DNA from: a virus
Taxonomy: Duplodnaviria; Caudoviricetes
Direction: 5' to 3' (one strand)
Length of the DNA: 64,000 nt
Virus record (IMG/VR): IMGVR_UViG_3300010355_000898
Span: 192,001 to 256,000 of that record
In this document: positions 26,124 through 64,000 of the stretch, piece by piece
Numbering within the stretch: position 1 is the first letter of the stretch
Layout: each line of letters starts with the position of its first letter
Translations under genes and position numbers: made by a program
Notes under the pieces: generated by a model
The model's database searches: none
Told to the model about the DNA's origin: nothing
The model's input: the letters and a program-made list of their open reading frames with translations, nothing else

Positions 26124-27092
26124 ATGAGTGGAATACTTGACAGCAAAACAAGAGTTATTGATACTGTCATTACAGATGAAGGCCGTAGGCAAATTTTGCA
26201 GGGCGGCCTTCAGGTAAAATATGTGTCATTTAATGACATTGGAATTTCTTATGAAGAAGATATTGTAAGTGGGTCAGTTGATCCTGCTGGAAAGATATAT
26301 CTTGAGGCATCAAAACTTCCTTGGGACATGATTGTTTTTGAAGCTGATGATTCTGGAAAAATAACAACTGCACTGAATGGTGTAATGTCACAGAACAGTA
26401 CACTCATAAACAATGGAAATATTGTTCAGACTGAAAACATATCCGGATCAATTGTTTCAACAATATTGTCAGGTTCTGAATTTGCATCAACTGCGGGTGA
26501 TATCATTTCCATTACAACAAATTCAGTACAGAAGATGCAGCAACTTGGATATGATGACAATCAGTATGATGATATCAATATAGATCTTATTCCAAATGCG
26601 TACAGTTTCAAAAAAGATTTGCAATTACAAAATGCATATGATCAATTGAATATTGATGTAATGGATACAATGATCACAGATGGAAAATTGAGAGGAAAAA
26701 TCAATTTTCAGTTTTTGCCACCAATCAATTCAACTGATGGAAAAGTCATTGGAAAATATACAGACGTTAGATCATATGTTTCTCAACAAAAGGCAATCCC
26801 TTTTCAGGATGGTGGAAAATATATGAAAGCAAGCCTATTTCAAGAATTGAAAAATCTTGATGATAATGGTATGAAAAAAACATTTGCAATAGAAAAAGTT
26901 TCAAGAACAAATAATATTGCATTACAAATTTATGAAATCGAGAATGATACCATAACAAAACTTGATATGATTTCATTGGTTGATGATGATAACCAATATT
27001 TTGGCGGAAGATCAGTCTATTCAATTGGCAAAGTTTTTCAAAATAGTTTGGAACAAGATGTTTTCGTGAATATATTCAATCTTGTGATATGA
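26124..27092 (+). CDS. Putative virion structural (baseplate/tail) protein
   Basis: N-terminal ID.VITDEGR..I motif shared with 34645; first gene of the structural block. Confidence 0.55.
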   Translation: MSGILDSKTRVIDTVITDEGRRQILQGGLQVKYVSFNDIGISYEEDIVSGSVDPAGKIYLEASKLPWDMIVFEADDSGKITTALNGVMSQNSTLINNGNIVQTENISGSIVSTILSGSEFASTAGDIISITTNSVQKMQQLGYDDNQYDDINIDLIPNAYSFKKDLQLQNAYDQLNIDVMDTMITDGKLRGKINFQFLPPINSTDGKVIGKYTDVRSYVSQQKAIPFQDGGKYMKASLFQELKNLDDNGMKKTFAIEKVSRTNNIALQIYEIENDTITKLDMISLVDDDNQYFGGRSVYSIGKVFQNSLEQDVFVNIFNLVI

Positions 27093-27111
27093 ATAGATGG
27101 AGTAATAGAAC

Positions 27112-29406
27112 ATGTTTGTAAATTTGACAGATCTGAAACAAACAAATTTGCTCACTGTCGGTGATGGAAATTCATTTGCAGATTTGATCAATATTGCTGA
27201 TATGAATGCTGAATTCAATCTATTTTGTAGCATAAACAAAGAATTGGCAAAACAGGTTAATGCAACAAAAATAACTGTTTCGATCAAAAAGAACACAAAT
27301 CCAGTACCAGGTACAATTGCAGCAAGTATTGAAGGTGGTGTTATCAATTCACAAAAATTGATTGATAATGCTGTGATGCAATACAAAAAATCTGTTGATG
27401 AAATGGATAAAGCAAATGTTAATGTTGCAATACAATCAGTAGCTGTCAGTCAAGTTGTGAATGCGAATACAGTTTCAAAAAAGTTATCATTTGAACAGAA
27501 CAGTGCCATATCACTTGAAACTATGAAACAATTGTATGATGTTGCGCCATCAAAACAGGCATTCATTGATCTGATCAATGACGGCATTGATCCATCAACA
27601 ATTGTGCAAATGAATCATTACAGTTCAACAGCACAACACAATATTTCTGGTCTTACAACTACAATAAAGAGTTCAAATTTGAACAAAAAACAGACAGATT
27701 TGTTGAATATGATGTTGAATGGTGTGTTTACAAATTCAAATACATTTCTAAATCAAACATTTGATATAGTGAATGATATTGATGGTGAATTTGAATTCAA
27801 TGTTTTGCTGCCAACCTATTTGGGAAATTGTACAGTTGTTTTCACTGTGTATGATAATAGGTCAACACAATTGAAAAAAGTTGAGAGACAACTGAACATT
27901 TCATCATTTATTGAAAACTATTTGGTTCCAAAAACTGCACCAATTGTGAAGAAAAAATCAGTATCAAATGGTACATTTCTCAACATAAAACAGACATCAA
28001 ATGTTGCAACCGGTGTACTAATTTTTAGAAAAAATGTAACATCACTTGAAAATTATGAATTGATTGACAATATCAAATTGACAGCATTGAATGACATCAA
28101 TTATAAGATTGATGAAATCAGATCAAATACCATGATCTATAGGGTTGTGTCATATGGTCCTGATGAACGATATATTTCATCAACATATACAAATGTTGTT
28201 GCATTGAAAAATCTTCAAAAGAATTATCTTTCTAGTATACTATCATTCAATATTTTCCAATCAGACAATAGTGTTAAGTTTTCATTATCAGGTTTGAGCA
28301 AAAGCAAATATCAGATTGCCGGAATTCAATTGTTTAGAAGAAATCTAACATTCAAAGAGACTGAATATACATCGATAACAGAAATTGAACCAATAGATGG
28401 AGATCTTTATGAAAAGATATCATTGGTAGAAAAATATGGATATGTGTATGAATACTATCCGCGAATATTTTTTAAGAATGGAACAAAGTATGACTTTATT
28501 ACGAAAGTCATTGATCTAATCGAACCAAATCCAGATAAAATTGACACAAAAATTTCAAACTTTGTAATCATTGATCAGGGTGATCTTGAATTGAATGTTC
28601 AATTTGATGTCATTTCAAATTATGTTGACAATTCAATTCAAAACTTGAAAAATTTGTTAACTGATAATGGTGTGTATGATCTGTATGCAACACTTTTTGA
28701 TGAACAGAAAATTCAATTATCAGATGTGATTGCACATCATATTCAAAGAGTTAACAACACAACGGGAGATGTTGAATATCTTGGAATTATTGATAATGGA
28801 AAATTTGATGATATTGCACAATCAAAAAAATCATCTGCAAAATCATTGAATTCAGAACATTCATATACATATGAAATTTTTACGTTATTGAAATCTGCTG
28901 AAACGTTATTTGAGACAAATATAAAATTGCAAACAGATACAATATCAAATAAGAAATTCATCTTTAATGTTCCAAAATATAGAAATAGTGAAACATTGAA
29001 ATCTGGATGTGTTTATACTTTGCAAGGATTAGATTTGAAAATTGGAAAAGATCATTTCAATTATGGAATAATTGGTGAACCAATTGTACAAACTGTTGAT
29101 TTCAAAAGAACAACTGCAACAATAACTCAACAATCTGTTGTGAGAGCAGAAACTGATTTGAATATCATTACATGGGAAGTTGTTGGTGATATCAAAACAA
29201 TTGATCATTTCATAATCATGAAATGTAATGACGTAACAAAAACAATAATTGATGTAGTTCATTCTGGCTTTATTGGAAATTCTTGTTTTTATCAACACAA
29301 ATTGCATCCAAAATATGACACAGGAGAATTTCAATATTTCATAAGACCAGTATTCAATACATATGATATTGGCGCACCAACCTATACAGATAAGGTGACC
29401 ATATAA
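27112..29406 (+). CDS. Putative virion structural protein with FN3/Ig-like repeats
   Basis: Repeated IFRK...Y.YRV, Y.YEY, Y.YEI and FQYFIRP strands. Confidence 0.55.
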   Translation: MFVNLTDLKQTNLLTVGDGNSFADLINIADMNAEFNLFCSINKELAKQVNATKITVSIKKNTNPVPGTIAASIEGGVINSQKLIDNAVMQYKKSVDEMDKANVNVAIQSVAVSQVVNANTVSKKLSFEQNSAISLETMKQLYDVAPSKQAFIDLINDGIDPSTIVQMNHYSSTAQHNISGLTTTIKSSNLNKKQTDLLNMMLNGVFTNSNTFLNQTFDIVNDIDGEFEFNVLLPTYLGNCTVVFTVYDNRSTQLKKVERQLNISSFIENYLVPKTAPIVKKKSVSNGTFLNIKQTSNVATGVLIFRKNVTSLENYELIDNIKLTALNDINYKIDEIRSNTMIYRVVSYGPDERYISSTYTNVVALKNLQKNYLSSILSFNIFQSDNSVKFSLSGLSKSKYQIAGIQLFRRNLTFKETEYTSITEIEPIDGDLYEKISLVEKYGYVYEYYPRIFFKNGTKYDFITKVIDLIEPNPDKIDTKISNFVIIDQGDLELNVQFDVISNYVDNSIQNLKNLLTDNGVYDLYATLFDEQKIQLSDVIAHHIQRVNNTTGDVEYLGIIDNGKFDDIAQSKKSSAKSLNSEHSYTYEIFTLLKSAETLFETNIKLQTDTISNKKFIFNVPKYRNSETLKSGCVYTLQGLDLKIGKDHFNYGIIGEPIVQTVDFKRTTATITQQSVVRAETDLNIITWEVVGDIKTIDHFIIMKCNDVTKTIIDVVHSGFIGNSCFYQHKLHPKYDTGEFQYFIRPVFNTYDIGAPTYTDKVTI

Positions 29407-32400
29407 TGCCAAATGTTAACACAATTGTTTACAATTCAACATCACAAATAGCTTCTGCAATCAATACAAAACAGTATGAAGTTGTCGGTATTAACACAGA
29501 TACGCCAACAGTGATATTGTTGTCTGAGTTCAAACCATTGTATGATTATAAGGACGGCGGCTATTCATTAACAAATGAAGGACAATTTCTTCAAAAACAG
29601 TTGTCAACACAAAATGTGTTGAATACATCAATCAGAAAATTGTTGAAAAATTTGAAAACAAATACATCAACTTCAAAAATGACAATTCAAACAGTAATAG
29701 ATCAAACATTGTCATTATTACAAAGTGCGCAATTGGTTGAACCATTTTTTGACATAAAATCATTGAAAACAAATGCAATCGTATATGCAAAGTCTCAAAC
29801 TGCATACAACAATCAATTGGAAATTGAATCAATATATTTGAACAGAATTCCTGCAATCATACCATCAGAGATCACAATTTCAGATCTGTTGAAAACGTTT
29901 GGTTATACTCAAATTGAAAAATGGTCACCAATGAAATTGTATCAACAATTGTTGGTCGAATTGAGACATTTAATTGTGTCACAATCACCAGTTTTTAGTT
30001 TTGAAACTAATTCAAGAACAACATCAATATCATTAACAAATCATCAAAATGGAATATTCATTCCAAATGATATTGTTCTGATACCACCATGGCCTGTTAG
30101 TGATGTGCAGAGATTATTGTATAGCAATCTTGTTGTTGGTACAACAGATTATTCATCAAATGATCTAATCAATTATGCAAAAGGTGTTGTCAATTCATTA
30201 ATGCCCTATAAATCAAAATTTCAAGGTGATAAATGTATTTGTCAACTTGCAATGATGTTATCAAAAGAATTCAATATTTCAACAGCACTAAATTCAAAAG
30301 AAGTTTTGAGTGCATTGGCTGGTAAATGGATGCCTCCACCACTTGAGAATGTTGAAAATGATTATGCTGTAATTGATGCAATAATTGGAAAATTTATCAC
30401 TGATGTAAATCAACCACACAATACGTTGGATAATTCACTCATAAATTCAGCATATACAATTGATTTTGATGGAAACTATGTAACAAACATTTCTGGTGGT
30501 TCTGATTGTGTACTCAAATCACCACAACAACATTATATTGATGAAACATTTTCAAACGTAACAAAAGACAATAATGGTAACACGAAGTTTGTAACAACAA
30601 ATTGTGATGCAAGAATTAAACAATTGGATGATAATTTGAATACATTACAAACATTTGCGAAGTATTCAAATTTGTATGGCGCAAAAACAAAATTGAAATA
30701 TAAGCTATCAACTGGTGGTAGTCTTGTTGACGTTCAAACAAATTTAACAAATCATACAAAATTGTTTGAAGACATTTTCAATATGATGTATCAATTGAGT
30801 TCAACACAAAATGTTGATGGCACAAAAACATACTATGTTGATGAAATTGACAAATTGACAGCAGTGTATGTTGACAACAAGATTGAAAAAGTATCAAAAT
30901 CATTATCATTCAAGCTGTTATGTTCAGCAGCATTGGCAGATGTGACAACAATGACAAGATTGATGGCACTCATTTTGTGGAAAATGAACATAAATCCAGC
31001 AAATACATTTGCAAATAACAGAATGAAAGATATTGTAACTCAACTTGTTAGTTCTGTTTTTGTTTCTCAAGGTACATATAAGCTCAGCAATAAACAACAA
31101 TTTATGTATGCAAGTGCAAATTATGCATCTACATACAAGATGAAATCATTTGTTGAATCAACAACAAAAGTACTCATGTATGGTGCAGACACACAAGGAA
31201 TTGATGTTTTTGAAAACGTTGTGTCATATATAAAAGCAATGTTAAGTCTGTATGAAAATAATGCATGCAGATCAACAACCACTGGTTTCAAAACGAGCAG
31301 ATTTGGTGGTTATTCAATGTTATTGATTGCATTGTTGATGACAAATTTGGTGATAAGAATTACAGCACAATTTTCACCATATTCATTGCAAGCTTCTGTT
31401 GCAACAACAGATACTCTTGGTAATGGTTTAGTTGTACAGATTGACAGTCAAAAAACACTTTATGGAACAAAGTATCAAAATATTGAGAATATTCTTGAAA
31501 AAGAATATGGGTACATGACACAAGCTCTGTTTTCAATTGAAGATATGATCCAAAAAACAAGATCTCAACTGTCAGGATTTATATCTTCAATAAATGGAAT
31601 TTCTGTTGAAAAGAATGAATTTAGAAATTTGTTATCAACAATTGGTGGTGATTTGATCAAATTTGCATCACCAATATCACGATCACATTTTAACATAGTC
31701 AAGGATACACAACTATCATTACCTAAAAATTTTGATCCAATGAAATCACAATCTGTTGATGAATTGTTGGATTTGATTGATACAACCGATTATGGTACTG
31801 ATTTTTACAATCTATTGTTGTCACATTTTAAGCAACAGGATTATTCAATTTCTAACAAATCATTCAATAAAAAAATCATATCAGTTGGAATTCCAAATGG
31901 TATGGCAGAGAAATTGAGAAAAGCTTCATATTATGAAAATGATACGTATGAAAATGATATCATATCAATTATGATAACAAAGATTGACAATTTTCAAAAA
32001 GACATTGTTTTCAACAAGAAAGAATATATGTTTGAATTGTCAAGATTTGTGAAGCGTGATATGACATCGATTAAGTCAGTGAAAGATTTGACATCATCAG
32101 ATGATGTGATCACAAATATACAGACATACAATTTTGCAAATTTGGATAATCAAAATTATCAGGGAAAAACTTACCCTGAAAGTCTTTCAGAACAACAATA
32201 TTCAAATTTGACACAAACTGGTAAAAAAAACATGATTTATAATCATATCATGAGTTTCTTTTTATCAATCTATATGCAAAAATTCACTGGTGTAAAACTT
32301 ATGGAAGAACAGTATTCATTGGTCGACAACACTGTTGATACACAACTTTCATCTCTCATTGCAAATCAATTTGCAAATACAAATCTTATTTCGCCAAAAT

Positions 32401-32699
32401 TTGTTTCAGAAACAAATGATTATCTAACAAACAGATTGAAGTCTGTTGACAACCAATCACTCATTATGCAATTGATGACACCAAAAAAGTTTGATAGAAT
32501 ATTCAATATTATTTTTGATCCAGATGATTTTACAATTGATCTCATAAAAACAGCATCAACTGATGTTGGTAAAAAAGTTTTGAATCAATTGTTGACAACA
32601 GGAAAAATGCAACAAAAATCTGGCGTTGGTATCCTTTCTAAAAAAGGAAAACAAGATATATCATTTGATAGTTACTTTGTAACAGTGAGAAACGTCTAA
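29406..32699 (+). CDS. Large hypothetical protein, likely virion
   Basis: 1097 aa, S/T/N-rich, coupled within the structural operon. Confidence 0.55.
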   Translation: MPNVNTIVYNSTSQIASAINTKQYEVVGINTDTPTVILLSEFKPLYDYKDGGYSLTNEGQFLQKQLSTQNVLNTSIRKLLKNLKTNTSTSKMTIQTVIDQTLSLLQSAQLVEPFFDIKSLKTNAIVYAKSQTAYNNQLEIESIYLNRIPAIIPSEITISDLLKTFGYTQIEKWSPMKLYQQLLVELRHLIVSQSPVFSFETNSRTTSISLTNHQNGIFIPNDIVLIPPWPVSDVQRLLYSNLVVGTTDYSSNDLINYAKGVVNSLMPYKSKFQGDKCICQLAMMLSKEFNISTALNSKEVLSALAGKWMPPPLENVENDYAVIDAIIGKFITDVNQPHNTLDNSLINSAYTIDFDGNYVTNISGGSDCVLKSPQQHYIDETFSNVTKDNNGNTKFVTTNCDARIKQLDDNLNTLQTFAKYSNLYGAKTKLKYKLSTGGSLVDVQTNLTNHTKLFEDIFNMMYQLSSTQNVDGTKTYYVDEIDKLTAVYVDNKIEKVSKSLSFKLLCSAALADVTTMTRLMALILWKMNINPANTFANNRMKDIVTQLVSSVFVSQGTYKLSNKQQFMYASANYASTYKMKSFVESTTKVLMYGADTQGIDVFENVVSYIKAMLSLYENNACRSTTTGFKTSRFGGYSMLLIALLMTNLVIRITAQFSPYSLQASVATTDTLGNGLVVQIDSQKTLYGTKYQNIENILEKEYGYMTQALFSIEDMIQKTRSQLSGFISSINGISVEKNEFRNLLSTIGGDLIKFASPISRSHFNIVKDTQLSLPKNFDPMKSQSVDELLDLIDTTDYGTDFYNLLLSHFKQQDYSISNKSFNKKIISVGIPNGMAEKLRKASYYENDTYENDIISIMITKIDNFQKDIVFNKKEYMFELSRFVKRDMTSIKSVKDLTSSDDVITNIQTYNFANLDNQNYQGKTYPESLSEQQYSNLTQTGKKNMIYNHIMSFFLSIYMQKFTGVKLMEEQYSLVDNTVDTQLSSLIANQFANTNLISPKFVSETNDYLTNRLKSVDNQSLIMQLMTPKKFDRIFNIIFDPDDFTIDLIKTASTDVGKKVLNQLLTTGKMQQKSGVGILSKKGKQDISFDSYFVTVRNV

Positions 32700-34568
32700 A
32701 TGGAAACATTGCCATCTTCACAAATTGTTGATATTGATATTCCAAATTATGAAGATCAGTTTAACGTACAGTTTGTATACAATTTTTTTGTTGAAGATGA
32801 GATGGTGAATACTGTAAATGACTCACAATTGAATTCATCATTGAATAATAAGATTTCATCCACAAATCAGAATGTATATGAACAATCATATTTGAAAAGA
32901 AAAGTACCAAGATATGTAAAAATTCAAATCTGTAACACTTTACAACAGTCTGGAAAAAATTCACAAGCTGAAATCTATTACACACAATTGAAATCTTTAA
33001 ATGGGTTGATCAAATCAAATCTTGACAGATTGATTGATGAAGATGTTGCAGCAACGTTCAGATACTATAGTGTAAACTATTATGATGTTAGCACAGATGC
33101 AAGAAACAATTATGTGATTTCCGGATCATACACCATGTTGAAAGCGACAGATGTGTTTGCGCCAATTTCACAAACAAAAACTACTCAACAACAATTTTTG
33201 AATGCTCTATCACCAAAAGCACACAATGAAATATCAAACAAATATAACAATTATGATCAGAATGCATTCATAAACTTAAATGTAAAAGTGAATTCACAAT
33301 TGTTATCAAAGGTCATTGACGATAATAATAGCAGATTTGTGGTGAACACAAATATGAATACAAATACGCCAATTGACAATTTGCAAGGAGTTGGCATAAA
33401 CAGTTTTCAATTATCTGAAGCAGATTATAGATTGATACTCAAACCAATTAGTGTTTCAACACTACAGCATGGCAATGTTCAAATTTCATCATATCAAACA
33501 AATCTTGTTGGCTATGTCATAACAAAAAAAAGAATAAATTTAGATGGAACATATGCTTCATTTGAACAGTTGACAGTTGAGACACCAGATATATCAACGA
33601 TATACGATACAGATATTTTGTTTGGTGCAGTGTATGAATACACAATAAGTTCTGTGTACAAGATTGATATTCCAGCTATTGATATTTTAACAGGTGAAGG
33701 AGTGTATGCTTCATTTCTATTCAAATCAAAACAATCATCAACCAAAACAGTGATTTGTGATGAGATGATACCACCTAAGCCACCAACAAATTTGATGTTT
33801 ATTTGGGACAATATGTCAGGTGTTGAGAATGTTTTACAGTATGATCAGCTAACAAATGAATATGTGAATTCTCCAACGTCAAGAGGAAGATTGATCATTT
33901 CATGGTCATTTCCAATTGGAACGCAATTGGATGTGAAACAATTTCAAATTTTCAGAAAAAAGAAACCAAGATATGGAACTTTTTATGACATTCCATATGA
34001 GCTGATAAAAGTGTACAATTTTGACAATTCAGTCATTCCAATGAAAAGTGATGACAATAATGTTGATACAAAATTGATTGAAAAAATGTCAAATCCAAAA
34101 ACATTCTTTATTGATGAGGAATTTGATAAAAATTCAGATTATGCATACACAATTTGTGCAGTTGATGCGCATGGCTATACTTCAAACTATTCATCACAAT
34201 TTGAAGTTTGGTTTGATCAAACTTCAGAAAAATTGAAGAAACGATTGTTATCAATTCAGGGTGCACCAAAAGCATATCCAAACATATATGCAAATTTTGA
34301 TATGTTTAATGACCTGATTAGGGTAAATGGTCCTAGAGCGACAAAATTTGATCTATATTTTAATCCAGAAGTTTACAAAATTCAGAAGGGTGACGATATT
34401 GTTGATGCTATAGCAACAATTCAAGATAATGTCTTGAAAGACAACAATGCAAAACGTTATTTGATTGATGTCGTAAATACAGATACAGCAACAGGATGTG
34501 ATACCAGTGTGTACATAACAACACAAAATGTTGTATCACCAATCATGTCATTTGCAATGAGACAATGA
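32700..34568 (+). CDS. FN3-domain structural protein
   Basis: PPKPPTNL, IISW, FQIFRK, YAYTICAVDAHG.TS.YS. Confidence 0.65.
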   Translation: METLPSSQIVDIDIPNYEDQFNVQFVYNFFVEDEMVNTVNDSQLNSSLNNKISSTNQNVYEQSYLKRKVPRYVKIQICNTLQQSGKNSQAEIYYTQLKSLNGLIKSNLDRLIDEDVAATFRYYSVNYYDVSTDARNNYVISGSYTMLKATDVFAPISQTKTTQQQFLNALSPKAHNEISNKYNNYDQNAFINLNVKVNSQLLSKVIDDNNSRFVVNTNMNTNTPIDNLQGVGINSFQLSEADYRLILKPISVSTLQHGNVQISSYQTNLVGYVITKKRINLDGTYASFEQLTVETPDISTIYDTDILFGAVYEYTISSVYKIDIPAIDILTGEGVYASFLFKSKQSSTKTVICDEMIPPKPPTNLMFIWDNMSGVENVLQYDQLTNEYVNSPTSRGRLIISWSFPIGTQLDVKQFQIFRKKKPRYGTFYDIPYELIKVYNFDNSVIPMKSDDNNVDTKLIEKMSNPKTFFIDEEFDKNSDYAYTICAVDAHGYTSNYSSQFEVWFDQTSEKLKKRLLSIQGAPKAYPNIYANFDMFNDLIRVNGPRATKFDLYFNPEVYKIQKGDDIVDAIATIQDNVLKDNNAKRYLIDVVNTDTATGCDTSVYITTQNVVSPIMSFAMRQ

Positions 34569-34644
34569 ATTTACATTTTTGATTGATGCAAATTTTGTAG
34601 TATTGATATGAGATAGAGACGTATAAGTAAATAATGAGTTACAT

Positions 34645-35346
34645 ATGGGATTTCTTGACAACAGCACAAACAACATAATTCTTGATGCAGTTTTGACTGA
34701 TACAGGACGTCAATTCATTGCAAAACAGGATGGATCATTTTTGATTCATAAATTTGCTTTTAGTGATGATGAGGTCGACTATTCAATTATTCAAAAGTAT
34801 GGAAGACAAATTGGTAGAGAAAAGATTGAAAAGAATACACCAATCTTTGAAGCAATAACAAATCAATCACAATCTCAAAAATATAAGTTGGTTAGCATAT
34901 CAAATCCAAATTTGACAAGATTGCCAAAACTTGATCTGATTAACACAACTTCAAATACAATTACGTTAGGCAGAAATAACAAAAAATATTCAGCAATATC
35001 AATTGAGCAATCAATTCAGGATGGTTCGACAATAGATGTTGAATTGAGAGATCAAACATTTACTGTTGAATTGAATAATCTGTTTCTTGAAGTTCAAAAA
35101 GAAGTTCCAGAATTGATTGATGGATATCAGAAAGCAACATATCTTTTGACAAGATCATCTTCAGTTACATCAGCTTCAGGATCAAAACTTGAATTCACCA
35201 TCAATGTAAAATCAATAAGTGATACACTTTTTACAACATATGGAACAACACAAAATAAATCACAAATAAAAACGTATGTTAAGGTTGTTGGTTTACAATC
35301 AGGCGCTGTGAAAGAATTTACAGTTGTGATAGATAAGAACGTATAA
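34645..35346 (+). CDS. Putative baseplate/tail structural protein
   Basis: MGFLD....ILDAVLTD.GR...A....F.I.KFAFSDDEVDY. Confidence 0.6.
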   Translation: MGFLDNSTNNIILDAVLTDTGRQFIAKQDGSFLIHKFAFSDDEVDYSIIQKYGRQIGREKIEKNTPIFEAITNQSQSQKYKLVSISNPNLTRLPKLDLINTTSNTITLGRNNKKYSAISIEQSIQDGSTIDVELRDQTFTVELNNLFLEVQKEVPELIDGYQKATYLLTRSSSVTSASGSKLEFTINVKSISDTLFTTYGTTQNKSQIKTYVKVVGLQSGAVKEFTVVIDKNV

Positions 35347-35360
35347 CGAGAGAATATTCA

Positions 35361-36569
35361 ATGGCAACCTATAAAGAACTTTTACCAAACAATATCAAAA
35401 CTGCTAGAACACAATTATCACAAATTGTTGATGTGTTGCAAGAGGATATAAGCGGTTCTGTATCAAGAAAAAAGTATCAACATTTTGTTACGGGTGGGAT
35501 TGGACCAGGTGTTACATCATCACTTTTTCAAACAGTTTATGATCAAGATTTCACAATGCAAACTGCAAACGCTGTATTTGATGTGACAGTTGGTCTATTT
35601 GAGGGTGGCGCAACTGTTTTAAACAGTACAACTGGAACTGATGCCGCTGGAAAATTGCTTTTCCCATCATCATCATTGATGATGAGAGAAAAGATTGACA
35701 ATTATAAGCAATTTGCTGGTACACTTTTGGGTGATACAACAGCACAATTCACGGCACCGTTTGACAGTACAGACACAAGTGATAACATTGATGTTGCAGC
35801 ATTTTTTGCAATCAAACGTTTGTTTGCAAGAGATCAGATAAAGAGAGAAACATTTGCTCTAAAATTTTATCAGACTGCTTCACTCAGTAAATATGATGGT
35901 GGAACATCAATATCAAATTTGTACAAATCTTCTGAATTGGGTGCTGCAATCTATACAGATGTTGGCAGTGCAACAAATAAATTGTCAACATTTGGTGGTC
36001 AAGTTGGAAATGTTGTGAATGCTGCAGACGTAACCCAAACTGTCGGTTTGCTATTTTATGATAGAGGAGTATTGGTACTTGATCTTGAAAAATGTACTTC
36101 AGGATCACAATTTGTGTCAGGAACAATTGATGCAATGAACAGCTTGGGTTATCAAACTCTTGGTGCTACAGGAACTGAAACAGCGTTAACATCAAAATTT
36201 ATACCTGATTTTATTGTTTCAGGTTCAATTGACAACATTGTTGATCATCTTTGCTATTCAAGATTTCAATCAGGTTCATATTCAGCAATGTTGTTTCAGA
36301 ATTCAACAAACATAAACAGTTCACTGATCTATTGTACCGGTGAAGCTGATGAATTCAACTACAGTTCAAATCCAACATTTACAGATGAAAATGATAGAAT
36401 AGTTGTTATTGATGAAGGTCAAGAAGATGTTCAACAAACGTTTTCATATATAACAGGTGTTGGACTGTATGATGCAAATGATAATCTGCTTGCAATGGCA
36501 AAAACATCAAGACCAATTGAAAAAAGTCCTGAAAGACAAATTACATTGAGAGTAAGATTGGACGCATAA
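35361..36569 (+). CDS. Putative tail/baseplate structural protein
   Basis: VG.LFYD.G, EFNYSSNPTF, YITGVGLYDAND.LLA.AK.SRPI.K, VRLD. Confidence 0.6.
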   Translation: MATYKELLPNNIKTARTQLSQIVDVLQEDISGSVSRKKYQHFVTGGIGPGVTSSLFQTVYDQDFTMQTANAVFDVTVGLFEGGATVLNSTTGTDAAGKLLFPSSSLMMREKIDNYKQFAGTLLGDTTAQFTAPFDSTDTSDNIDVAAFFAIKRLFARDQIKRETFALKFYQTASLSKYDGGTSISNLYKSSELGAAIYTDVGSATNKLSTFGGQVGNVVNAADVTQTVGLLFYDRGVLVLDLEKCTSGSQFVSGTIDAMNSLGYQTLGATGTETALTSKFIPDFIVSGSIDNIVDHLCYSRFQSGSYSAMLFQNSTNINSSLIYCTGEADEFNYSSNPTFTDENDRIVVIDEGQEDVQQTFSYITGVGLYDANDNLLAMAKTSRPIEKSPERQITLRVRLDA

Positions 36570-36589
36570 AGTTTTGATAGTTATGCAAC

Positions 36590-45012: not shown

Positions 45013-45013
45013 A

Positions 45014-52240: not shown

Positions 52241-52630
52241 ATGTTAAACAATCCAAAACCAGGTTATAATGCTCTCAATGAATATCAGGCATCTGCATTA
52301 CCATGGGTAACCAGTTCATATGGTGCTCAAGGCGTAACATATGGATACAATTTTGACTATGTTACAAAATTTGTTGTGATTAAGAATTTGACTTCAACAT
52401 CTGGTAGCAATTTACGAGTTGGTTTTACAAAAAATGGTGTTGAAAATTCAAACTATTTTCTTGTTGCACCAAGTGATCAGATAGATCTTGAATATCGGGT
52501 TAATGAATTGTATTTGAGAACTGATGGAGCATATTCAGTTCAGTATTCAGTGGCTGCAGGTTTGACTGCAATTGAATCACGATTTGCAGTACCAATCACC
52601 GGATCAAATGGATACAATGGAGTAGGATAA
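52241..52630 (+). CDS. Small beta-rich putative virion protein
   Basis: YQ.S..PWVTSS, VTKF..IKN, LRVGF, NYF; ATATTTA upstream. Confidence 0.65.
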   Translation: MLNNPKPGYNALNEYQASALPWVTSSYGAQGVTYGYNFDYVTKFVVIKNLTSTSGSNLRVGFTKNGVENSNYFLVAPSDQIDLEYRVNELYLRTDGAYSVQYSVAAGLTAIESRFAVPITGSNGYNGVG

Positions 52631-53937: not shown

Positions 53938-55818
53938 ATGTCAAAGCAATTATACGTTGAAGCATTAGCTGATGTCAAAAAATTGAAGGAAGTTGCAGAA
54001 AATAATGCAAAAAATGCAATTATTGAAGCTGTTACTCCAAGAATTAGAGAATTCATTGAAAATTCTCTTCAAGGAGAAATCGATGATCAAGAGGATGAAA
54101 CTGATGACATAACTCCTCCTGGAATGCCCTCAGTTAATGGAGAAATGTTGACAGATGTTGACAATAATCCAAATGAGAAGAATGATTTGACAGTATCTGG
54201 TGAAGAACAACCACTTGAACAGATGACGGCTCCAACTCCACAATCAGAACAACCATTGATATCATCTCCTGATGAAGAAGGAAAAGTTACTCTTGATCTG
54301 AGCGGTCTTGAGGCTCCTCCTGGTGAAGTTGATGTTGTTGTGCCAAATGTTGAGGATGTTGTTGTTGATGAAATATCTTCAGATGATTCAGAAGAAGAGT
54401 ATGAATTGAGTCTTGAAGCAATATCATTGTTGGCGCCTCTCATTGGAAAGAAGAAGGCTGCCAATGAAAAAATGTTTGAATTGAATGTTTACAGAATTTC
54501 AGAAGCAGTTGATCAGTACAGGACCGCAAGCAAACTTTTGAGAGAAACAAGAACATATCAGGATCAAATTTCAAAGATGATTGCTGCAGTGCAAAATATG
54601 TATGAATACTTGCAGGAAGCTGGTTTTGAACAGTCAAGGAAATCATTCCTTGAAGAAAAACTTGAGAAACTGCATGAGGATGTTAACAATCTCAAGAAAC
54701 AGGGCAAAAACATGAAAAAACTTAATGAAGCAGAAGTTACTCTCAAATTGACCGGCATGCCGGATGACATTGATCTTGAACAGATTGGTGTTGATCTCTT
54801 GACTGGTGAAGAGGAGGAAGGAACTGAAGAGGGTGAACCTGAGGACCTTGATATTGACATCACATCTGATGAGGATGAAGGTGGTGAAGAGGGCCAAGAG
54901 GGTGAAGATCTTGATCTGAACATTGATGCTGACGGTGAAGATGTTAACGTCAAAGAAGAGGGTGAAGATATGGATGATGATCAGGTCATTGAGATTGATG
55001 AATCTGTTCTCAGAAGAGAGCTGATCAGAGCACGTAAACTCTTTGAGAGCGCTGCAAAAGCAAAGAGTGCAAAGGACTTTGGCGGTGGAAAGTCTGATGG
55101 CGATCCACTGAAAGAGGATGAAGAATTTGGCGGTGGAAAATCAGAGGGTGATCCTCTCAAGGAAGCAGATGGTGCTTCAGATGATGAGGGAACTCTGGTT
55201 GCAAATGAATCAGTTTGCGAAGAGGGTGATGAGATGGAAGAGGGTGGTCAAAAGGGTGAAATCAATGATCAACCAGAAAATCGTCAGATTGAGGAAGAAC
55301 TTCAATTTGAGTCAAAATTGCGCTCATCACTTGCAAGGAGAGCTAAACTGATCAGAGAGAGTTCAGTCAGTGGTTCAAGAGTGCGTTACAACAACATTGT
55401 GAAGCGTTTCAATGAATCACTCGCACGTTCAAAAGGATTGCGTGCAAAGATGTTAAAAGAGCACAACTCAAATAGTGGCTCAAGGTCTGAGGAGAGCAGG
55501 ACCAACAGAAGTCTCCAAACAAAATTGGCAGAGACGAATCTCTACAATGCAAAACATCACTTAACAAAGAAGCTGTTTGAAACTCGTGTTGTGACATCTG
55601 CTCAGAAGGCAGCAATTGTCAGAAGAATTGATGCAGCAAAATCTGTTGGTGAGGTTAGGGCTCTAATTGAGAATTTCTCAAAGAGACTTAGTGGTAAGAC
55701 AATCAGTGAGAGTGCTGTCAAAGGCAGCGCATCACAACCCGCAAAGCAATCACAACCAGTCTTGACAGAAGGTGTCGAGGTTGATCGTTGGGGTAAGCTT
55801 GCTGGCATAATCAAGTGA
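53938..55818 (+). CDS. Prohead scaffold/core protein
   Basis: ALAD.KKLKEVA..NAK, long acidic regions, ETNLYNAK, C-terminal RWGKLAGI; immediately upstream of the capsid gene. Confidence 0.8.
   Translation: MSKQLYVEALADVKKLKEVAENNAKNAIIEAVTPRIREFIENSLQGEIDDQEDETDDITPPGMPSVNGEMLTDVDNNPNEKNDLTVSGEEQPLEQMTAPTPQSEQPLISSPDEEGKVTLDLSGLEAPPGEVDVVVPNVEDVVVDEISSDDSEEEYELSLEAISLLAPLIGKKKAANEKMFELNVYRISEAVDQYRTASKLLRETRTYQDQISKMIAAVQNMYEYLQEAGFEQSRKSFLEEKLEKLHEDVNNLKKQGKNMKKLNEAEVTLKLTGMPDDIDLEQIGVDLLTGEEEEGTEEGEPEDLDIDITSDEDEGGEEGQEGEDLDLNIDADGEDVNVKEEGEDMDDDQVIEIDESVLRRELIRARKLFESAAKAKSAKDFGGGKSDGDPLKEDEEFGGGKSEGDPLKEADGASDDEGTLVANESVCEEGDEMEEGGQKGEINDQPENRQIEEELQFESKLRSSLARRAKLIRESSVSGSRVRYNNIVKRFNESLARSKGLRAKMLKEHNSNSGSRSEESRTNRSLQTKLAETNLYNAKHHLTKKLFETRVVTSAQKAAIVRRIDAAKSVGEVRALIENFSKRLSGKTISESAVKGSASQPAKQSQPVLTEGVEVDRWGKLAGIIK
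55078..55164 (+). repeat. In-frame duplication FGGGKS(D/E)GDPLKE x2
   Basis: Copies at 55078-55116 and 55126-55164. Confidence 0.85.
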
Positions 55819-55850
55819 ACAAATACAGAAAGCAAAAGAGAGAGAAATAT

Positions 55851-57737
55851 ATGTCTAAAATGTTTACACTTGATCAGCTCTCAAAGGACGTTAAAGAACG
55901 TAACATTGGTGCTGATCGCGTTAGATTGGTAGAAAAATGGTCAAGATCAGGTCTCCTGAGAGGCCTTGATGGTTACAAGCGTGAGTCAATGGCTCAATTG
56001 CTTGAGAACCAAGCAGCACAGGTTTTGAAGGAAGCTGCTGCAATCTCAACCGGTGGTGGTACAATGACCTCAACCGGTCAACTGCAAGGTTTCACAAACG
56101 TTGCATTCCCAATAGTTCGTAGGGTTTTCGGTGGTCTCGTTGCAAATGAGCTGGTTTCAGTTCAGCCAATGACACTCCCATCTGGCCTTGTGTTCTATCT
56201 CGATTACACATATGGAAGTTATGTCGGTGGTGACAGCGATGCAACAAACAATGTGTATGCAAAGGGTCAGTCATTGTACAGCAACCCAGCTGGTAGAGGT
56301 ATCCAATCAGGATCTCTTGCAGCAGGTGGTATGTATGATATCGCTGGTGATGGATACTCAAGAGTTCATGCTGTGTCAGCAACCATCGCAACTGCATCAA
56401 TTGGTGCATGGACCGGTGCTTCTGAAGCCTGGACAGTTGGTGGCATCGTTGCTTCACAAACTGATTTTACAGGTACAAACGCAAGAATGCTTCAATTTGA
56501 TCCACAAGTTGAGGTTGACATTGCAAACAATGTTCTTGACGTTCAATTCCTCCATGTCGCTGTCAGTGATTTGACAACTGGCATTGCAAAGGGTGACTTC
56601 CTCGCAATTGATCAGATTGCTTACTTTGGTCCAACGACCGGGAGCGTCGGCTCCGACGTCTGGGGTTCAACCTATCAGGGCGGTTCTGGCATCCTGAATC
56701 TCAGGAGACTGAACAAGCGTGGTACGTTCTCTGGTGGTGTGTTTACCGCTGATCCACTCAATGGTACATACATTCAGATGGTACTCAGGTTGACAAACGC
56801 TGCAACAACAGCAATCATCACCGGTGCTCAGGCTTCAAACTTGAAGTTCTCTGCTCCTGTCCAAGACAACCTCGCAGTTGACAGCAGCTCTGGCGGTACT
56901 CTCACGGTTCCAAGTTTTGAAAGCGATTTTGGTTCTTCACCAACGCCTGCAATTCCTGAAATCGATATCAAGATTGAGAGCATTGCAATCACTGCAACAA
57001 GCCGTAAGCTCAGGGCTCGTTGGTCCCCTGAATTGGCACAAGATCTCAATGCGTACCACTCAATTGACGCAGAGGTTGAGTTGACATCAATCCTTTCAGA
57101 GCAGATTGCTCTTGAGATTGATCGTGAAATTCTTGGTGATCTTCTCACACAAGCAAATGGCGCAATCATGTACTGGAGCAGAGCTCCTGGCAGGTTCGTC
57201 AACAAGTTGACCGGTGCTCCTGTTCAGTTGGCAAACAGCCTTTCAATCGGACCACAATTCACTGGTACAGTCCGTGAATGGTATGAGACACTGATTGAGA
57301 CAATCATCGATGTTGCAAATACAATTCACAGGAAGACCCTCCGCGGTGCAGCAAACTTCATGGTAACTGGCCCAGATGTTTGCACAATCCTTGAGAGCAG
57401 CGTGTTGTATAAGCCAAAGTTCTCAATTGATAGCGAAGGTCAGGTTGGCAGCCCATTCACCATTGGTGCAGAGGCTGTTGGTACGGTGAGCAACAGGTTC
57501 ACAGTTTACAAGGACCCATACTTCCCAAGAAACAAGATTCTTGTTGGATATAAAGGTGGATCATATTTGGAAACGGGATTTGTATATTCCCCATACGTTC
57601 CGCTGATAGTCACACCAACAATTTTCGCACCTGAAGATTTTACGCCAAGGCGTGGAGTGATGACAAGGTACGGAAAGAAGATGATTCGATCTGACTTCTA
57701 TGGTGTTGTGAATGTCCTTGACATGAACATCATCTAA
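55851..57737 (+). CDS. Major capsid protein (T4 gp23-like) with a large insertion
   Basis: KW..SGLL.GL, LLENQ, FPIVRRVF..L.A.ELVSVQPM..PSGL.FY, RKLRA.WS.ELAQDL.A.H..DAE.EL, EIDREI, GYKG, Y.PY.PL, TRYG. Confidence 0.97.
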   Translation: MSKMFTLDQLSKDVKERNIGADRVRLVEKWSRSGLLRGLDGYKRESMAQLLENQAAQVLKEAAAISTGGGTMTSTGQLQGFTNVAFPIVRRVFGGLVANELVSVQPMTLPSGLVFYLDYTYGSYVGGDSDATNNVYAKGQSLYSNPAGRGIQSGSLAAGGMYDIAGDGYSRVHAVSATIATASIGAWTGASEAWTVGGIVASQTDFTGTNARMLQFDPQVEVDIANNVLDVQFLHVAVSDLTTGIAKGDFLAIDQIAYFGPTTGSVGSDVWGSTYQGGSGILNLRRLNKRGTFSGGVFTADPLNGTYIQMVLRLTNAATTAIITGAQASNLKFSAPVQDNLAVDSSSGGTLTVPSFESDFGSSPTPAIPEIDIKIESIAITATSRKLRARWSPELAQDLNAYHSIDAEVELTSILSEQIALEIDREILGDLLTQANGAIMYWSRAPGRFVNKLTGAPVQLANSLSIGPQFTGTVREWYETLIETIIDVANTIHRKTLRGAANFMVTGPDVCTILESSVLYKPKFSIDSEGQVGSPFTIGAEAVGTVSNRFTVYKDPYFPRNKILVGYKGGSYLETGFVYSPYVPLIVTPTIFAPEDFTPRRGVMTRYGKKMIRSDFYGVVNVLDMNII

Positions 57738-57763
57738 GGTTAAAATAAGGTCAAAATAACTTT

Positions 57764-61605: not shown

Positions 61606-61627
61606 AAATCAGTAAATAAAAAGTGTG

Positions 61628-61666: not shown

Positions 61667-61682
61667 GTTGTACAATCTGTGC

Positions 61683-61907: not shown

Positions 61908-61925
61908 AGTGATAATATATCAAGT

Positions 61926-62132: not shown

Positions 62133-62133
62133 T

Positions 62134-62346: not shown

Positions 62347-62347
62347 A

Positions 62348-62817: not shown

Positions 62818-62845
62818 TTAGCTTGCAGGAACGGGTGGAGAAACA

Positions 62846-63373
62846 ATGACTGCAAAAAGAATTGTTACAGATCATAAAGAACTTGACAACATAGGTACAC
62901 TGACACATGATCAGATTGATGTTGCTGTCAACAACACAGAGTGGATCATAACGTCAAGTTCAGTTGAACAACCTCCAAATGCAAGAAAATTGACAGCCGG
63001 AACTGGAATTCAGATTGATGATCATGGTCCAGGAGCAGAGCTCATCATATCTTCAACTGCATCCGGATCATCAGGTATTGATGAAAGTGTTCATGAAAGT
63101 TTGAATACACTTGCACACTATCCTGTGCAAAACGGTGTTGATGATGTTCAGTACAATACGTGGGGTGTTACAGACTACATTTTGTGGACAAATGGTTCAA
63201 GAAATGTCAAATTGCAGGATTACAAAATTACTTACAACAGTATTGGTTTGATATCACAATTGACTGGTAGCACATACAATTCTGATGGTACAGTGAAAAC
63301 AAGATTATTGGAAACGCCAACATATGACAGTTTGAGAAGAATAGTTTCTATTGACAGGGTGAAAGTTGTGTAA
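62846..63373 (+). CDS. Tail-fibre-associated structural protein
   Basis: TH.QID and NARKLTAGTGI...D.GPG, the latter shared with the next gene. Confidence 0.6.
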   Translation: MTAKRIVTDHKELDNIGTLTHDQIDVAVNNTEWIITSSSVEQPPNARKLTAGTGIQIDDHGPGAELIISSTASGSSGIDESVHESLNTLAHYPVQNGVDDVQYNTWGVTDYILWTNGSRNVKLQDYKITYNSIGLISQLTGSTYNSDGTVKTRLLETPTYDSLRRIVSIDRVKVV

Positions 63374-64000
63374 ATGCTGAATGTAATACAGATACAGATT
63401 AATGATTCTACCCCAAGAGTATTCACTGGACCTCAAACATATGATAGAGACAATGGTGGTGCACTTATAGTTCCAGCAGGATACAGTTTGCCAACTGGAT
63501 CACTGATAAATGGTGAAGTTTTTTGGAACATCACAGAAAAGAAACTTTACAGATACAATTCAGGATCTCTGTCTTGGGAAGCATCTGGTGGAGCATATGC
63601 ACCTGATGATGCACAGTATCTTGTTCTGTCTTCATCTGCAACATTGTCAAATGAAAGAATTGTTTCAATTGGAACAGGATTGATTGGTGTTGATGGTGGT
63701 CCTGGGTCTGCATTCAATTTCAGCATTGATGACAGCGTTGTTGCAACGTTGAGTGGATCTGCATTCAGTGGTCCTGTTGTGGCAAATGGTGGATTGAGTG
63801 GATCACTTCAGAAATTGTCTGATGGAACGAGTTACATTGTTGCTGGCACAAATGTGTCAGTGATTTCTTCATCAAATGGTCAGATCACAATCAGCACTCG
63901 GGATGCAGCAGACTTGAATGCCTCATATTTGGTGTTGAATGCAACCAGTTCACTCAATAATGAGCGAGTATTGACAATTGGAACAGGATTGAGTGGATCA
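63374..64000 (+). CDS. Tail fibre-like protein, partial; runs off the window end
   Basis: Manual translation MLNVIQIQINDSTPRVFTG... is open to the end, with a repeated A.YLVL.....L.NER.L.IGTG unit. Confidence 0.7.
   Translation, partial: MLNVIQIQINDSTPRVFTGPQTYDRDNGGALIVPAGYSLPTGSLINGEVFWNITEKKLYRYNSGSLSWEASGGAYAPDDAQYLVLSSSATLSNERIVSIGTGLIGVDGGPGSAFNFSIDDSVVATLSGSAFSGPVVANGGLSGSLQKLSDGTSYIVAGTNVSVISSSNGQITISTRDAADLNASYLVLNATSSLNNERVLTIGTGLSGS

What the first reader, a model, noticed from the sequence alone, without database searches (positions are those of the whole stretch)
26124..64000. (S/T)-G-S tripeptide confined to virion proteins: a possible glycosylation sequon
Seen (manual count of SGS/TGS): 26124 x3, 32700 x1, 34645 x1, 35361 x4, 36590 x4, 52241 x2, capsid x2 (in or near the insertion region), 62846 x2, partial fibre x5 in about 209 aa. 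Many SAS/TAS/SSS/TSS variants occur too, often flanked by hydrophobic residues (ISGSV, VSGSI, LSASL, ITGSN). I found no SGS/TGS in the GTs, helicase, PhoH, primase, Mre11/Rad50, terminase or portal; exceptions are one in the PAS protein and two in the scaffold. Inference: [S/T]-[G/A/S]-S is an acceptor site for the glycosyltransferase cluster, giving a sequon-directed glycan coat on capsid, baseplate and fibres.
Basis: partly seen in the sequence, partly recalled or inferred. Interest (0 to 1): 0.85.

Follow-up and report, generated by a model that had tools for sequence, protein, structure and literature searches.

The report
Ser-Gly-Ser excess in outer virion proteins
The tail-fibre, outer-baseplate and capsid-insertion proteins of this 269-kb T4-like phage and its relatives carry the tripeptide Ser-Gly-Ser three to nine times more often than chance, a real and selected mark, but nothing yet shows whether it is a structural turn or a sugar-attachment site.

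Summary
The excess holds after correcting for composition and for local composition. The signal is the exact tripeptide S-G-S: 20 against 5.1 expected in the right half of the window, and 91 against 29.2 in the whole genome, where it ranks first of about 7,900 tripeptides. GSS, SSG, SAS, TAS, SSS and TSS are not enriched here.

About 40% of the sites lie in one roughly 103-residue tandem fibre repeat. In a conserved 402-aa baseplate-module protein, four sites persist as S-[G/A/S]-S in 80 orthologues.

The excess recurs in relatives: cultured Flavobacterium phage immuto, two IMG/VR relatives, and weakly RM378. It is absent from T4 virion proteins. Portal and inner-baseplate proteins lack it.

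The link to the glycosyltransferases cannot be tested by co-occurrence, because nearly all relatives carry them. One 236-kb relative lacks the whole GT4/GT2 cluster yet keeps the motif, though it has one GT8 gene.

My odds are structural or assembly turn motif 0.45 and O-glycosylation acceptor 0.3. Earlier notes in this scan reported the same or overlapping motifs on other genomes.

The parts
26124..27092 (+). 322-aa protein at the head of the baseplate module. SGS at residues 49, 107 and 116.
   Evidence: 3 observed vs 0.18-0.29 expected. Orthologues in relatives total 17 vs 5.0, but individual sites are poorly conserved. No Pfam or PHROG family.
27112..32699 (+). Two large proteins (764 and 1097 aa) in the position of the T4 gp6/gp7-like wedge proteins. 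No [ST]GS at all.
   Evidence: 0 observed. Orthologues have 2 vs 9.4 and 2 vs 3.8 expected. They are syntenic with the immuto 'baseplate wedge protein' region.
32700..35346 (+). 622-aa and 233-aa baseplate-module proteins with one SGS each (residues 141 and 178).
   Evidence: Counts are near chance in this genome. The site at 141 is SGS, SGT or SSS in about half of 41 orthologues. The site at 178 is not conserved.
35361..36569 (+). 402-aa conserved baseplate/fibre-attachment-module protein. SGS at residues 31, 247, 287 and 304.
   Evidence: 4 vs 0.29 expected. 124 relatives at 51-69% identity. Sites are kept as S-[G/A/S]-S, and the 80 orthologues total 255 vs 28.3. In the AF2 model (pLDDT 72) the sites lie in a disordered stretch, loops and a helix-helix junction. 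No solved fold matched. It is syntenic with immuto gp106.
36590..39079 (+). 829-aa fibre-like protein with a ConA-like (Laminin_G_3) domain. SGS at 158 and 231, TGS at 300 and 682.
   Evidence: Pfam PF13385. 75 orthologues total 206 vs 54.4. The site at 231 is conserved as [ST]GS. The ESM Atlas places it as a structural relative of the 35361 protein, TM 0.56.
52241..52630 (+). 129-aa head-module protein with SGS at 54 and TGS at 120.
   Evidence: 2 vs 0.21 expected. Function unknown. It lies between the prohead protease and the capsid gene.
53938..55818 (+). 626-aa protein in the scaffold position. SGS at 478 and 513.
   Evidence: 2 vs 0.41 expected. The G034 orthologue has none, so these two are probably chance.
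55815..57737 (+). gp23-type major capsid protein. SGS at 165 and TGS at 275, both inside an insertion of roughly 180 aa relative to T4 gp23.
   Evidence: PHROG 138, E 2e-72. G[IV][QR]SGSLA is conserved in three relatives. All [ST]GS sites fall in the insertion. T4 gp23 has none.
62846..63373 (+). 175-aa protein ahead of the long fibre. SGS at 73 and TGS at 140.
   Evidence: 2 vs 0.27 expected. Weak similarity to the repeat fibres.
63374..64000 (+). First 209 residues of a 1425-aa fibre (genome 255374-259651, L002:1-4278). It has nine tandem repeats of about 103 aa, each with up to three [ST]GS.
   Evidence: 25 SGS and 5 TGS vs 3.3 expected. Repeat alignment. The family has 1632 representative proteins. 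GL[ST]GSL[TQ]xLxDGxSYLxAG is its most conserved block.
650..17453 (-). Glycan-gene cluster proposed as the modifying system: five GT4-type and two GT2-type transferases, UDP-glucose dehydrogenase, NAD epimerase/dehydratase and two methyltransferases. None of these proteins contains [ST]GS.
   Evidence: Pfam. The 416-aa GT4 (650-1900) is a clade core gene. Its best solved relative is chlorovirus GT B736L, 3oy2, E 6e-7, a generic GT4 match.

Best explanation
S-G-S (more loosely S-small-S) is a clade-specific motif under purifying selection in the peripheral virion proteins of this phage lineage. It most likely acts as a structural or assembly element: a tight Gly-centred turn or junction flanked by two serine hydroxyls, between short beta-strands or at helix ends.

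Shown: the excess, its specificity, its conservation, its restriction to this clade, and its concentration in one repeat module and a few protein families.

Inferred: that the motif is a turn; that it spread by tandem duplication of a ~103-aa fibre module, by paralogy (35361/36590, three repeat fibres) and by reuse of short turn-rich units in other long fibres; and that the serines act through hydrogen bonds inside trimeric fibres rather than as modification sites.
For: - 36 of 91 genomic SGS lie in three paralogous fibres built from one repeat.
- In about 1,013 repeats from 150 family members, [ST]GS sits inside the best-conserved 20-residue block, with Gly 97% and the second Ser 96% conserved. 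Conserved neighbours surround it (L, [TQ], L, DG, SY, L, AG), which is typical of a core or interface element.
- Two [ST]GS per module are spaced 15 residues apart among many other Gly turns such as SNG, DGT and AGxN.
- The monomer AF2 model leaves exactly these segments unfolded, as expected for segments that fold only in an oligomer.
- Relative G053 keeps the full excess and all sites of the 35361 orthologue without any homologue of this GT4/GT2 cluster. The syntenic site there holds PrkA, SpoVR and DUF444 genes.
- The 35361 and 36590 proteins are structural paralogues, so fewer independent origins are needed.
Against: - Ordinary turn propensity does not explain why SGN, NGS, SGD and DGS are about two-fold depleted while SGS is 2.7-fold over its dipeptide expectation.
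- G, A and S interchange in the middle position at conserved sites. That argues for small size rather than a Gly-only backbone angle.
- The excess occurs in at least six proteins with no detectable sequence similarity, including an alpha/beta baseplate protein and the capsid insertion.
- Deep homologues of the 35361 protein (immuto gp106, RM378 p128) carry SGS at other positions. Homologous T4 virion proteins show no excess at all, 6 vs 6.5. Loss of position with retention of density suggests selection for the motif itself.
- No experimental or confident predicted structure shows the motif's geometry.
Confidence: 0.45

Rival explanations
1. S-G-S (S-small-S, partly T-G-S) is the acceptor site of cytoplasmic O-glycosylation by phage-encoded soluble glycosyltransferases. 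The conserved GT4 pair would start the glycan and the variable GTs and methyltransferases would extend it. The result is a glycan coat on fibres, outer baseplate and capsid insertion.
For: - The tripeptide is exact and strictly Ser-specific, and N/D analogues are depleted.
- The middle residue must be small and both serines are about 98% conserved.
- The excess spans sequence-unrelated outer virion proteins and is absent from portal, inner baseplate and non-virion proteins.
- It is the top-ranked tripeptide in three proteomes of the clade and is absent in T4.
- Sites turn over between deep homologues while density persists.
- Sites in the 35361 model lie in loops or low-confidence stretches.
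- The clade carries a core GT4 across hosts of three phyla (Flavobacterium, Microcystis, Rhodothermus). That fits a phage-intrinsic substrate.
- Pfam searches of this 17-kb cluster named transferases, sugar-nucleotide enzymes and methyltransferases but no flippase or polymerase.
- RM378 has a UDP-galactopyranose mutase gene inside its baseplate module.
- Known cytoplasmic Ser-only O-glycosylation of fibrous beta-helical adhesins hits Ser followed by small residues (NSGG, TSAA in TibA; PMC4358343).
- Phage virion glycosylation exists in mycobacteriophages (summarised in PMC12619734).
Against: - There is no chemical evidence.
- Co-occurrence with GTs is confounded by descent.
- G053 lacks the GT4/GT2 cluster and the core GT4 within 235.7 kb yet keeps the motif. 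It has only one GT8, which our phage lacks, so no initiating GT is shared by all motif carriers.
- The most conserved sites lie in a conserved structural block of a repeat.
- The GTs could instead act on DNA, since a ThyA-family gene is present, or on host glycans.
Confidence: 0.3
2. The motif is recognised in trans by something other than a glycosyltransferase. Candidates are another serine modification (phosphorylation, acylation), an assembly chaperone, or a docking site for decoration proteins.
For: The same specificity, multi-protein spread and positional turnover apply as for the glycosylation reading. The motif persists in G053 without the GT cluster, and G053 encodes a PrkA-type serine kinase operon at the syntenic site.
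Against: No candidate enzyme or partner is shared by all carriers. PrkA was seen only in G053. There is no precedent known to me for such a tag on phage virions.
Confidence: 0.12
3. The excess is an artefact of Ser/Gly-rich composition or of post hoc motif picking.
For: Virion proteins are richer in S, T and G, so expected counts are about three times higher per residue than in the left half of the window. The motif was chosen after reading the sequence.
Against: The excess survives whole-protein and block shuffles and the dipeptide model. Permuted tripeptides are not enriched. SGS ranks 1st of about 7,900 in two genomes and 2nd in the immuto module, an unbiased replication. T4 is a negative control.
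Confidence: 0.02

Closest known systems
Mycobacteriophage virion glycosylation by phage-encoded glycosyltransferases (Freeman et al. 2023, known here through PMC12619734)
   Same: A phage genome carries soluble GTs and methyltransferases near its virion genes, and virion proteins are the proposed substrate.
   Different: In mycobacteriophages the glycans are shown by experiment and sit on the C-termini of capsid and tail-tube subunits. Here nothing is shown, the motif is internal, and it lies mainly in fibres and outer baseplate proteins.
BAHT heptosyltransferases TibC/AAH acting on the autotransporters TibA and AIDA-I (PMC4358343)
   Same: Cytoplasmic, Ser-only O-glycosylation of many sites on a repetitive beta-rich fibrous protein. 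Modified serines are followed by small residues (NSGG, TSAA).
   Different: No GT9-type enzyme is found in this phage. No exact tripeptide sequon is described for BAHTs. The substrates are bacterial adhesins, not virions.
GtfA/GtfB glycosylation of serine-rich repeat adhesins (from my own knowledge, not tested against papers here)
   Same: A GT4-family enzyme works with an adjacent GT-B-like partner and modifies Ser in S-x-S type sequences. This clade keeps an adjacent pair of GT-B genes of about 416 and 382-400 aa.
   Different: Those acceptors are long runs of Ser dipeptide repeats, not isolated tripeptides. No specific similarity to GtfA appeared among solved structures.
Short Gly-turn repeats of viral fibres, such as the triple beta-spiral of the adenovirus fibre shaft and reovirus sigma1 (1qiu, 6gao)
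   Same: Fibrous virion proteins are built from short strands joined by Gly turns. Two [ST]GS of each module are spaced 15 residues apart. These entries are among the top Foldseek rows for the repeat model.
   Different: The matches are not significant (E about 6). No sequence relation was found. The fold of the repeat is unknown.
Moraphages and related large aquatic Bacteroidota phages (PMC12619734); Flavobacterium phage vB_FspM_immuto
   Same: T4-like capsid and terminase, predicted Bacteroidota hosts, several core glycosyltransferase families, and DnaJ in relative G053. Immuto shares the capsid protein, the core GT4, the 35361 homologue and the SGS excess.
   Different: The paper does not mention any tripeptide motif. 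Whether this phage belongs to that named lineage was not tested.

Membership tests
Phage virion glycosylation system (mycobacteriophage type) | Phage-encoded glycosyltransferases encoded close to the virion genes | tested here: met
   Seven GT domains plus sugar-nucleotide enzymes at 650-17453, about 9 kb upstream of the baseplate module.
Phage virion glycosylation system (mycobacteriophage type) | Glycans on the C-terminal tails of capsid and tail-tube subunits | tested here: inconclusive
   Candidate sites are internal and mostly in fibre and baseplate proteins. The capsid sites lie in a mid-protein insertion. Glycan positions cannot be read from sequence.
Phage virion glycosylation system (mycobacteriophage type) | Chemical evidence of glycosylated virion proteins | not testable with these tools
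   Needs glycan staining or mass spectrometry of virions.
Sequon-directed protein glycosylation (general) | Motif enriched beyond composition and specific in sequence | tested here: met
Sequon-directed protein glycosylation (general) | Motif presence tracks presence of the transferase across independent lineages | tested here: inconclusive
   All informative relatives have GTs. G053 lacks this cluster but has one GT8 and may be incomplete. There are no phylogenetically independent contrasts.
Sequon-directed protein glycosylation (general) | Motif on solvent-exposed loops | tested here: inconclusive
   Sites fall in loops or low-confidence stretches of two medium-quality monomer models. No accessibility or oligomer model was obtained.
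BAHT (TibC/AAH) autotransporter heptosylation | GT9-type heptosyltransferase present | tested here: not met
   PF01075 has no match in the phage genome. That TibC/AAH belong to the GT9-like heptosyltransferases is from my own knowledge.
BAHT (TibC/AAH) autotransporter heptosylation | Ser-only acceptor in short loops between beta-strands | tested here: inconclusive
   Strict Ser at conserved sites. Modest hydrophobic bias at -2 and +1. The structure is not resolved.
Triple beta-spiral fibre repeat | Pseudo-repeat of about 15 residues with a Gly/Pro turn and a fold match | tested here: inconclusive
   15-residue spacing within each module. Foldseek E about 6 only. No sequence match.
T4-like (gp23-type) myophage | gp23-type capsid protein, gp20-type portal, gp21-type protease and large terminase | tested here: met
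   PHROG matches with E from 1e-43 to 2e-72. tblastn hits to T4-like capsid genes.

The most novel reading that the evidence does not exclude
S-G-S (S-small-S) is a clade-wide O-glycosylation sequon. It would be read in the cytoplasm by the conserved phage GT4 pair and extended by the variable GTs and methyltransferases. Large aquatic Bacteroidota, cyanobacterial and Rhodothermus phages would then coat their fibres, outer baseplate and capsid insertion with a phage-made, strain-specific glycan. This would be the first sequon-defined virion glycosylation code in phages, and it can be tested on cultured Flavobacterium phage immuto.
Probability: 0.28. Interest if true: 0.85.

Novelty: new variant of a known kind. 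Interest (0 to 1): 0.55.

Why it matters
If the motif is an acceptor site, it would give phage virion glycosylation a readable sequence code. So far that modification is shown only for mycobacteriophages. It would also explain the large export-free glycan clusters of aquatic jumbo phages and allow glycan shields to be predicted from sequence.

If the motif is structural, it marks an undescribed fibre building block. The repeat family has about 1,600 representative proteins and no solved relative.

Either way the question is now directly testable. A cultured relative, Flavobacterium phage vB_FspM_immuto, shows the same excess (33 vs 7.4) and carries the same core GT4.

Tried and rejected
- **Nucleotide search.** The capsid region found nothing among deposited phages. 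Protein-level searches were needed.
- **PHROG and Pfam.** Neither names most motif carriers.
- **Fold of the 35361 protein.** Foldseek and VIA-align gave no convincing match, best Z 5.0 over 68 residues. A profile search of PDB sequences found nothing. The ESM Atlas returned only unnamed viral clusters.
- **Fold of the fibre repeat.** The model has pLDDT 66 and pTM 0.28. Only non-significant rows appeared, including the adenovirus and reovirus triple beta-spiral. The profile search against the PDB found only a chance histone hit.
- **Repeat in cultured phages.** tblastn found none.
- **26124 protein in IMG/VR.** No relative was found by the pattern scan.
- **GT-free relatives.** The four large contigs without GT1, and also G034, are cut next to the baseplate module, so they say nothing. 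G053 is the only useful case and is not GT-free.
- **DNA-level explanation** (shared 9-mer, recombination linker). Rejected: 36 different codings.
- **Composition and dipeptide explanations.** Rejected.
- **[S/T]-[G/A/S]-S as a general enriched class in this genome.** Rejected for SAS, TAS, SSS and TSS. G/A/S do interchange at conserved sites in orthologues, and TGS is enriched in G053 and immuto.
- **Literature.** A search for a known Ser-Gly-Ser sequon found nothing relevant. The Freeman 2023 paper itself is not held.

Full report
**Setting.** The window is bases 192001-256000 of a 269,547-bp IMG/VR phage record. GC content is about 32%. The phage has a gp23-type capsid protein, gp20-type portal, gp21-type protease and a large terminase. 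Its nearest deposited relatives are Flavobacterium phage vB_FspM_immuto, Microcystis phage Mel-JY01, an uncultured 484-kb phage and Rhodothermus phage RM378. Genes 26124-39079 are syntenic with the immuto block annotated 'baseplate wedge ... tail fiber ... tail spike'. That block ends, as here, before primase and exonuclease genes. Calling these genes baseplate or fibre proteins rests on that synteny, because no Pfam or PHROG family names them. The minus-strand block 650-17453 is a real glycan-gene cluster. It holds five GT4-type and two GT2-type transferases, UDP-glucose dehydrogenase, an NAD epimerase/dehydratase and two methyltransferases.

**The observation.** Shuffling each protein gives 26 [ST]GS observed against 9.1 expected in 26124-64000, with none of 2000 shuffles reaching 26. 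The left half has 1 against 2.7. So the apparent 'confinement' is an excess in some virion proteins, not a depletion elsewhere.

The excess belongs to the exact tripeptide S-G-S, at 20 against 5.08. GSS, SSG, TGS, SAS, TAS, SSS and TSS all stand at 0.8-1.6 times expectation. Shuffling within blocks of 10, 20 or 40 residues keeps the excess. A first-order dipeptide model expects 27.7 where 75 are seen. The chemically similar SGN, NGS, SGD and DGS are about two-fold depleted in the same proteins. The 91 genomic SGS are encoded by 36 different 9-mers, so the signal is at the protein level.

An unbiased scan of all tripeptides ranks SGS first of about 7,900 in the whole genome (91 vs 29.2). It ranks third once the three repeat fibres are removed. 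It ranks first in relative G053 and second in the immuto baseplate-fibre module. TGS is also enriched in those two. This answers the worry about post hoc motif choice.

**Where the sites are.** The 'partial fibre' at 63374 is a 1425-aa protein with 25 SGS and 5 TGS. Most of them lie in nine tandem repeats of about 103 residues, each of which carries GTGLSGSD, VATISGSTFSG and GGLSGSLQKL. Two further fibres upstream of the window (genome 168529-174455) share the module. Together these three hold 36 of the 91 sites.

The module defines a family of 1,632 representative proteins in public metagenomes. Across about 1,013 repeats, GL[ST]GSL[TQ]xLxDGxSYLxAG is the best-conserved block, with Gly 97% and the second Ser 96% conserved. 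ATxSG[ST]xF is next, and the GLSGSD copy is not conserved.

Outside the repeats the excess is still about five-fold. The window's baseplate module has 11 against 2.15. Three large proteins at genome 174477-184560 have 15 against about 2.1. These carriers show no sequence similarity to each other by phmmer. The ESM Atlas does relate 35361 and 36590 structurally.

The capsid protein's sites lie in an insertion of roughly 180 residues relative to T4 gp23. G[IV][QR]SGSLA is conserved there in three relatives.

Portal, terminase, protease and the two large proteins 27112 and 29406 have none. Orthologues of 27112 are even depleted, at 2 against 9.4.

**Selection.** The 402-aa protein at 35361 has 124 relatives at 51-69% identity. 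Its four sites read SGS, SAS or SSS in nearly all of 80 orthologues. Serines inside the motif are about 98% conserved, against 54% for the protein's other serines. Summed over relatives:

| Orthologue group | SGS observed | Expected |
|---|---|---|
| 35361 | 255 | 28.3 |
| 36590 | 206 | 54.4 |
| 26124 | 17 | 5.0 |

Non-virion neighbours sit near 1x. In fibre-type proteins individual sites turn over while density stays high. Deep homologues of the 35361 protein (immuto gp106, RM378 p128) carry SGS at other positions.

**Clade limits.**

| Phage or region | SGS observed | Expected |
|---|---|---|
| Immuto baseplate-fibre module | 33 | 7.4 |
| G053 (236 kb, about 40% aa identity), whole | 93 | 37.8 |
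| G034 largest fibre | 13 | 3.7 |
| RM378, 85-130 kb | 10 | 3.1 |
| T4, 26 virion proteins incl. all fibres and baseplate | 6 | 6.5 |

In G053 the excess has the same distribution over proteins as in this phage. The excess is therefore not a general property of T4-like virions or of tail fibres.

**Structure.** The AF2 model of the 35361 protein has pLDDT 72. It puts the four sites in a disordered stretch, a loop after a short helix, a helix-helix junction and a loop before a strand. No solved fold matches. A two-repeat fibre model has pLDDT 66 and pTM 0.28. It folds only the two hairpins of each repeat and leaves the SGS-bearing segments as low-confidence coil. The conserved GLSGSL stretch is the least confident part. 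That is what one expects of segments that fold only in a trimer. Foldseek's top rows include the adenovirus and reovirus triple beta-spiral, but at E about 6, which is a lead only. Exposure or burial of the serines could not be decided.

**The link to glycosyltransferases.** GT1-family genes occur in 15 of 19 and 21 of 36 relatives' contigs. Among the 19 contigs, the four without GT1 are cut close to the baseplate module; the misses among the 36 are nearly all short contigs at 7-44% estimated completeness whose context I did not check. Among 50,697 deposited phage records, the 416-aa GT4 (650-1900) and the 35361 protein hit exactly the same seven records. Immuto also has GT2 genes. So GTs and the motif are both clade characters, and their co-occurrence cannot be told apart from shared descent.

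A GT4 kept across phages of Flavobacterium, Microcystis and Rhodothermus does suggest a phage-intrinsic substrate. That could be virion protein, but DNA is not excluded, because a ThyA-family gene is present.

The one informative exception is G053. It has no homologue of any gene of this cluster by BLAST, phmmer or tblastn. It has no PF00534, PF00535, PF13692, PF13439 or PF13524 match. PrkA, SpoVR, DUF444, NUDIX and DnaJ genes occupy the syntenic site. It still has the full excess. However, G053 ends inside fibre genes, is rated 87% complete, and carries one GT8 gene that our phage lacks.

Our own record is rated 74% complete. Yet its first 221 bases repeat at its end, matching at 220 of 221. 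This suggests such completeness estimates run low in this clade. The result weakens a tie between the motif and this particular cluster, but it does not exclude glycosylation.

**Verdict.** For mechanism I give 0.45 to a structural or assembly turn motif, propagated by the fibre repeat and by paralogy. I give 0.30 to an O-glycosylation acceptor, 0.12 to another trans-recognised tag and 0.02 to artefact.

The structural reading is favoured by prior experience with fibre repeats, by the conserved block around the motif, and by G053. The acceptor reading is kept alive by several points:
- strict serine specificity;
- depletion of Asn and Asp analogues;
- the small-residue rule at the middle position;
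- spread over unrelated outer proteins;
- positional turnover with kept density;
- absence from T4.

Known parallels are Ser-only cytoplasmic heptosylation of TibA and AIDA-I at Ser followed by small residues (PMC4358343) and mycobacteriophage virion glycosylation (as cited in PMC12619734). This phage has no GT9-type enzyme. Its core GT4 matches solved GT4 enzymes only generically, the best being chlorovirus B736L.

Earlier notes of this scan report the same or overlapping motifs ([S/T]GS, LS[A/G/S], Ser-Gly) on other genomes of what appears to be the same broad group. This window is therefore not the first sighting.

Noticed in passing
G000 (own genome) bases 1-221 and 269327-269547: The first 221 bases are repeated at the end of the record, matching at 220 of 221. 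The contig is therefore probably a closed or terminally redundant genome of about 269.3 kb, although it is classed as linear and 74% complete.
   Followed up: partly
window 63374-64000 and beyond (L002:1-4278): A 1425-aa fibre with nine tandem repeats of about 103 aa plus a central domain that matches tail-fibre (C1q-like) domains of small phages. The repeat family has 1632 representative proteins, some with 20 or more repeats, and no solved structure.
   Followed up: partly
window 44999-47812 and 48199-50679: The large terminase is 937 aa, against 540-544 aa in relatives G053 and G034. Terminase matches fall at residues 13-325 and 685-860, around a middle part that hits an unnamed PHROG. The portal is 826 aa against 651-668 aa. 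Both look like they carry an inserted element such as an intein.
   Followed up: no
window 57984-60049: Two endonuclease-like genes lie directly after the capsid gene. One is an HNH/homing-endonuclease type, and the C-terminal half of 58892-60049 matches PHROG 3339 and 559. GC content rises to 0.44 in this stretch.
   Followed up: no
G000:C1:60523-61185 (outside the window): A ThyA-family gene in a 356-aa frame. If it is a hydroxymethylase rather than a thymidylate synthase, the glycosyltransferases could act on modified DNA instead of protein.
   Followed up: no
L156:9400-13855 (relative G053): At the position where this phage has its glycan cluster, relative G053 carries a PrkA serine kinase, SpoVR and DUF444 trio (YeaG/YcgB/YeaH-like), a NUDIX-HD protein and DnaJ.
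   Followed up: partly
L179:27986-29137 (Rhodothermus phage RM378): A UDP-galactopyranose mutase gene sits inside the baseplate module, two genes from the homologue of the 35361 protein.
   Followed up: no
relative G034 (L168-L178): The top over-represented tripeptides in G034 are PQG and GPQ (41 and 39 against 7.1 expected). This points to collagen-like repeats in one of its proteins.
   Followed up: no
window 35361-36569 and 36590-39079: The 402-aa and 829-aa neighbours appear to be structural paralogues (Atlas TM 0.56). The longer one carries an inserted ConA-like domain. Both end in a conserved ...VGLYD...LLAVAKLSRP...RVRLD segment, which earlier scan notes liken to half of a P2 gpH-type tail-collar domain.
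   Followed up: no
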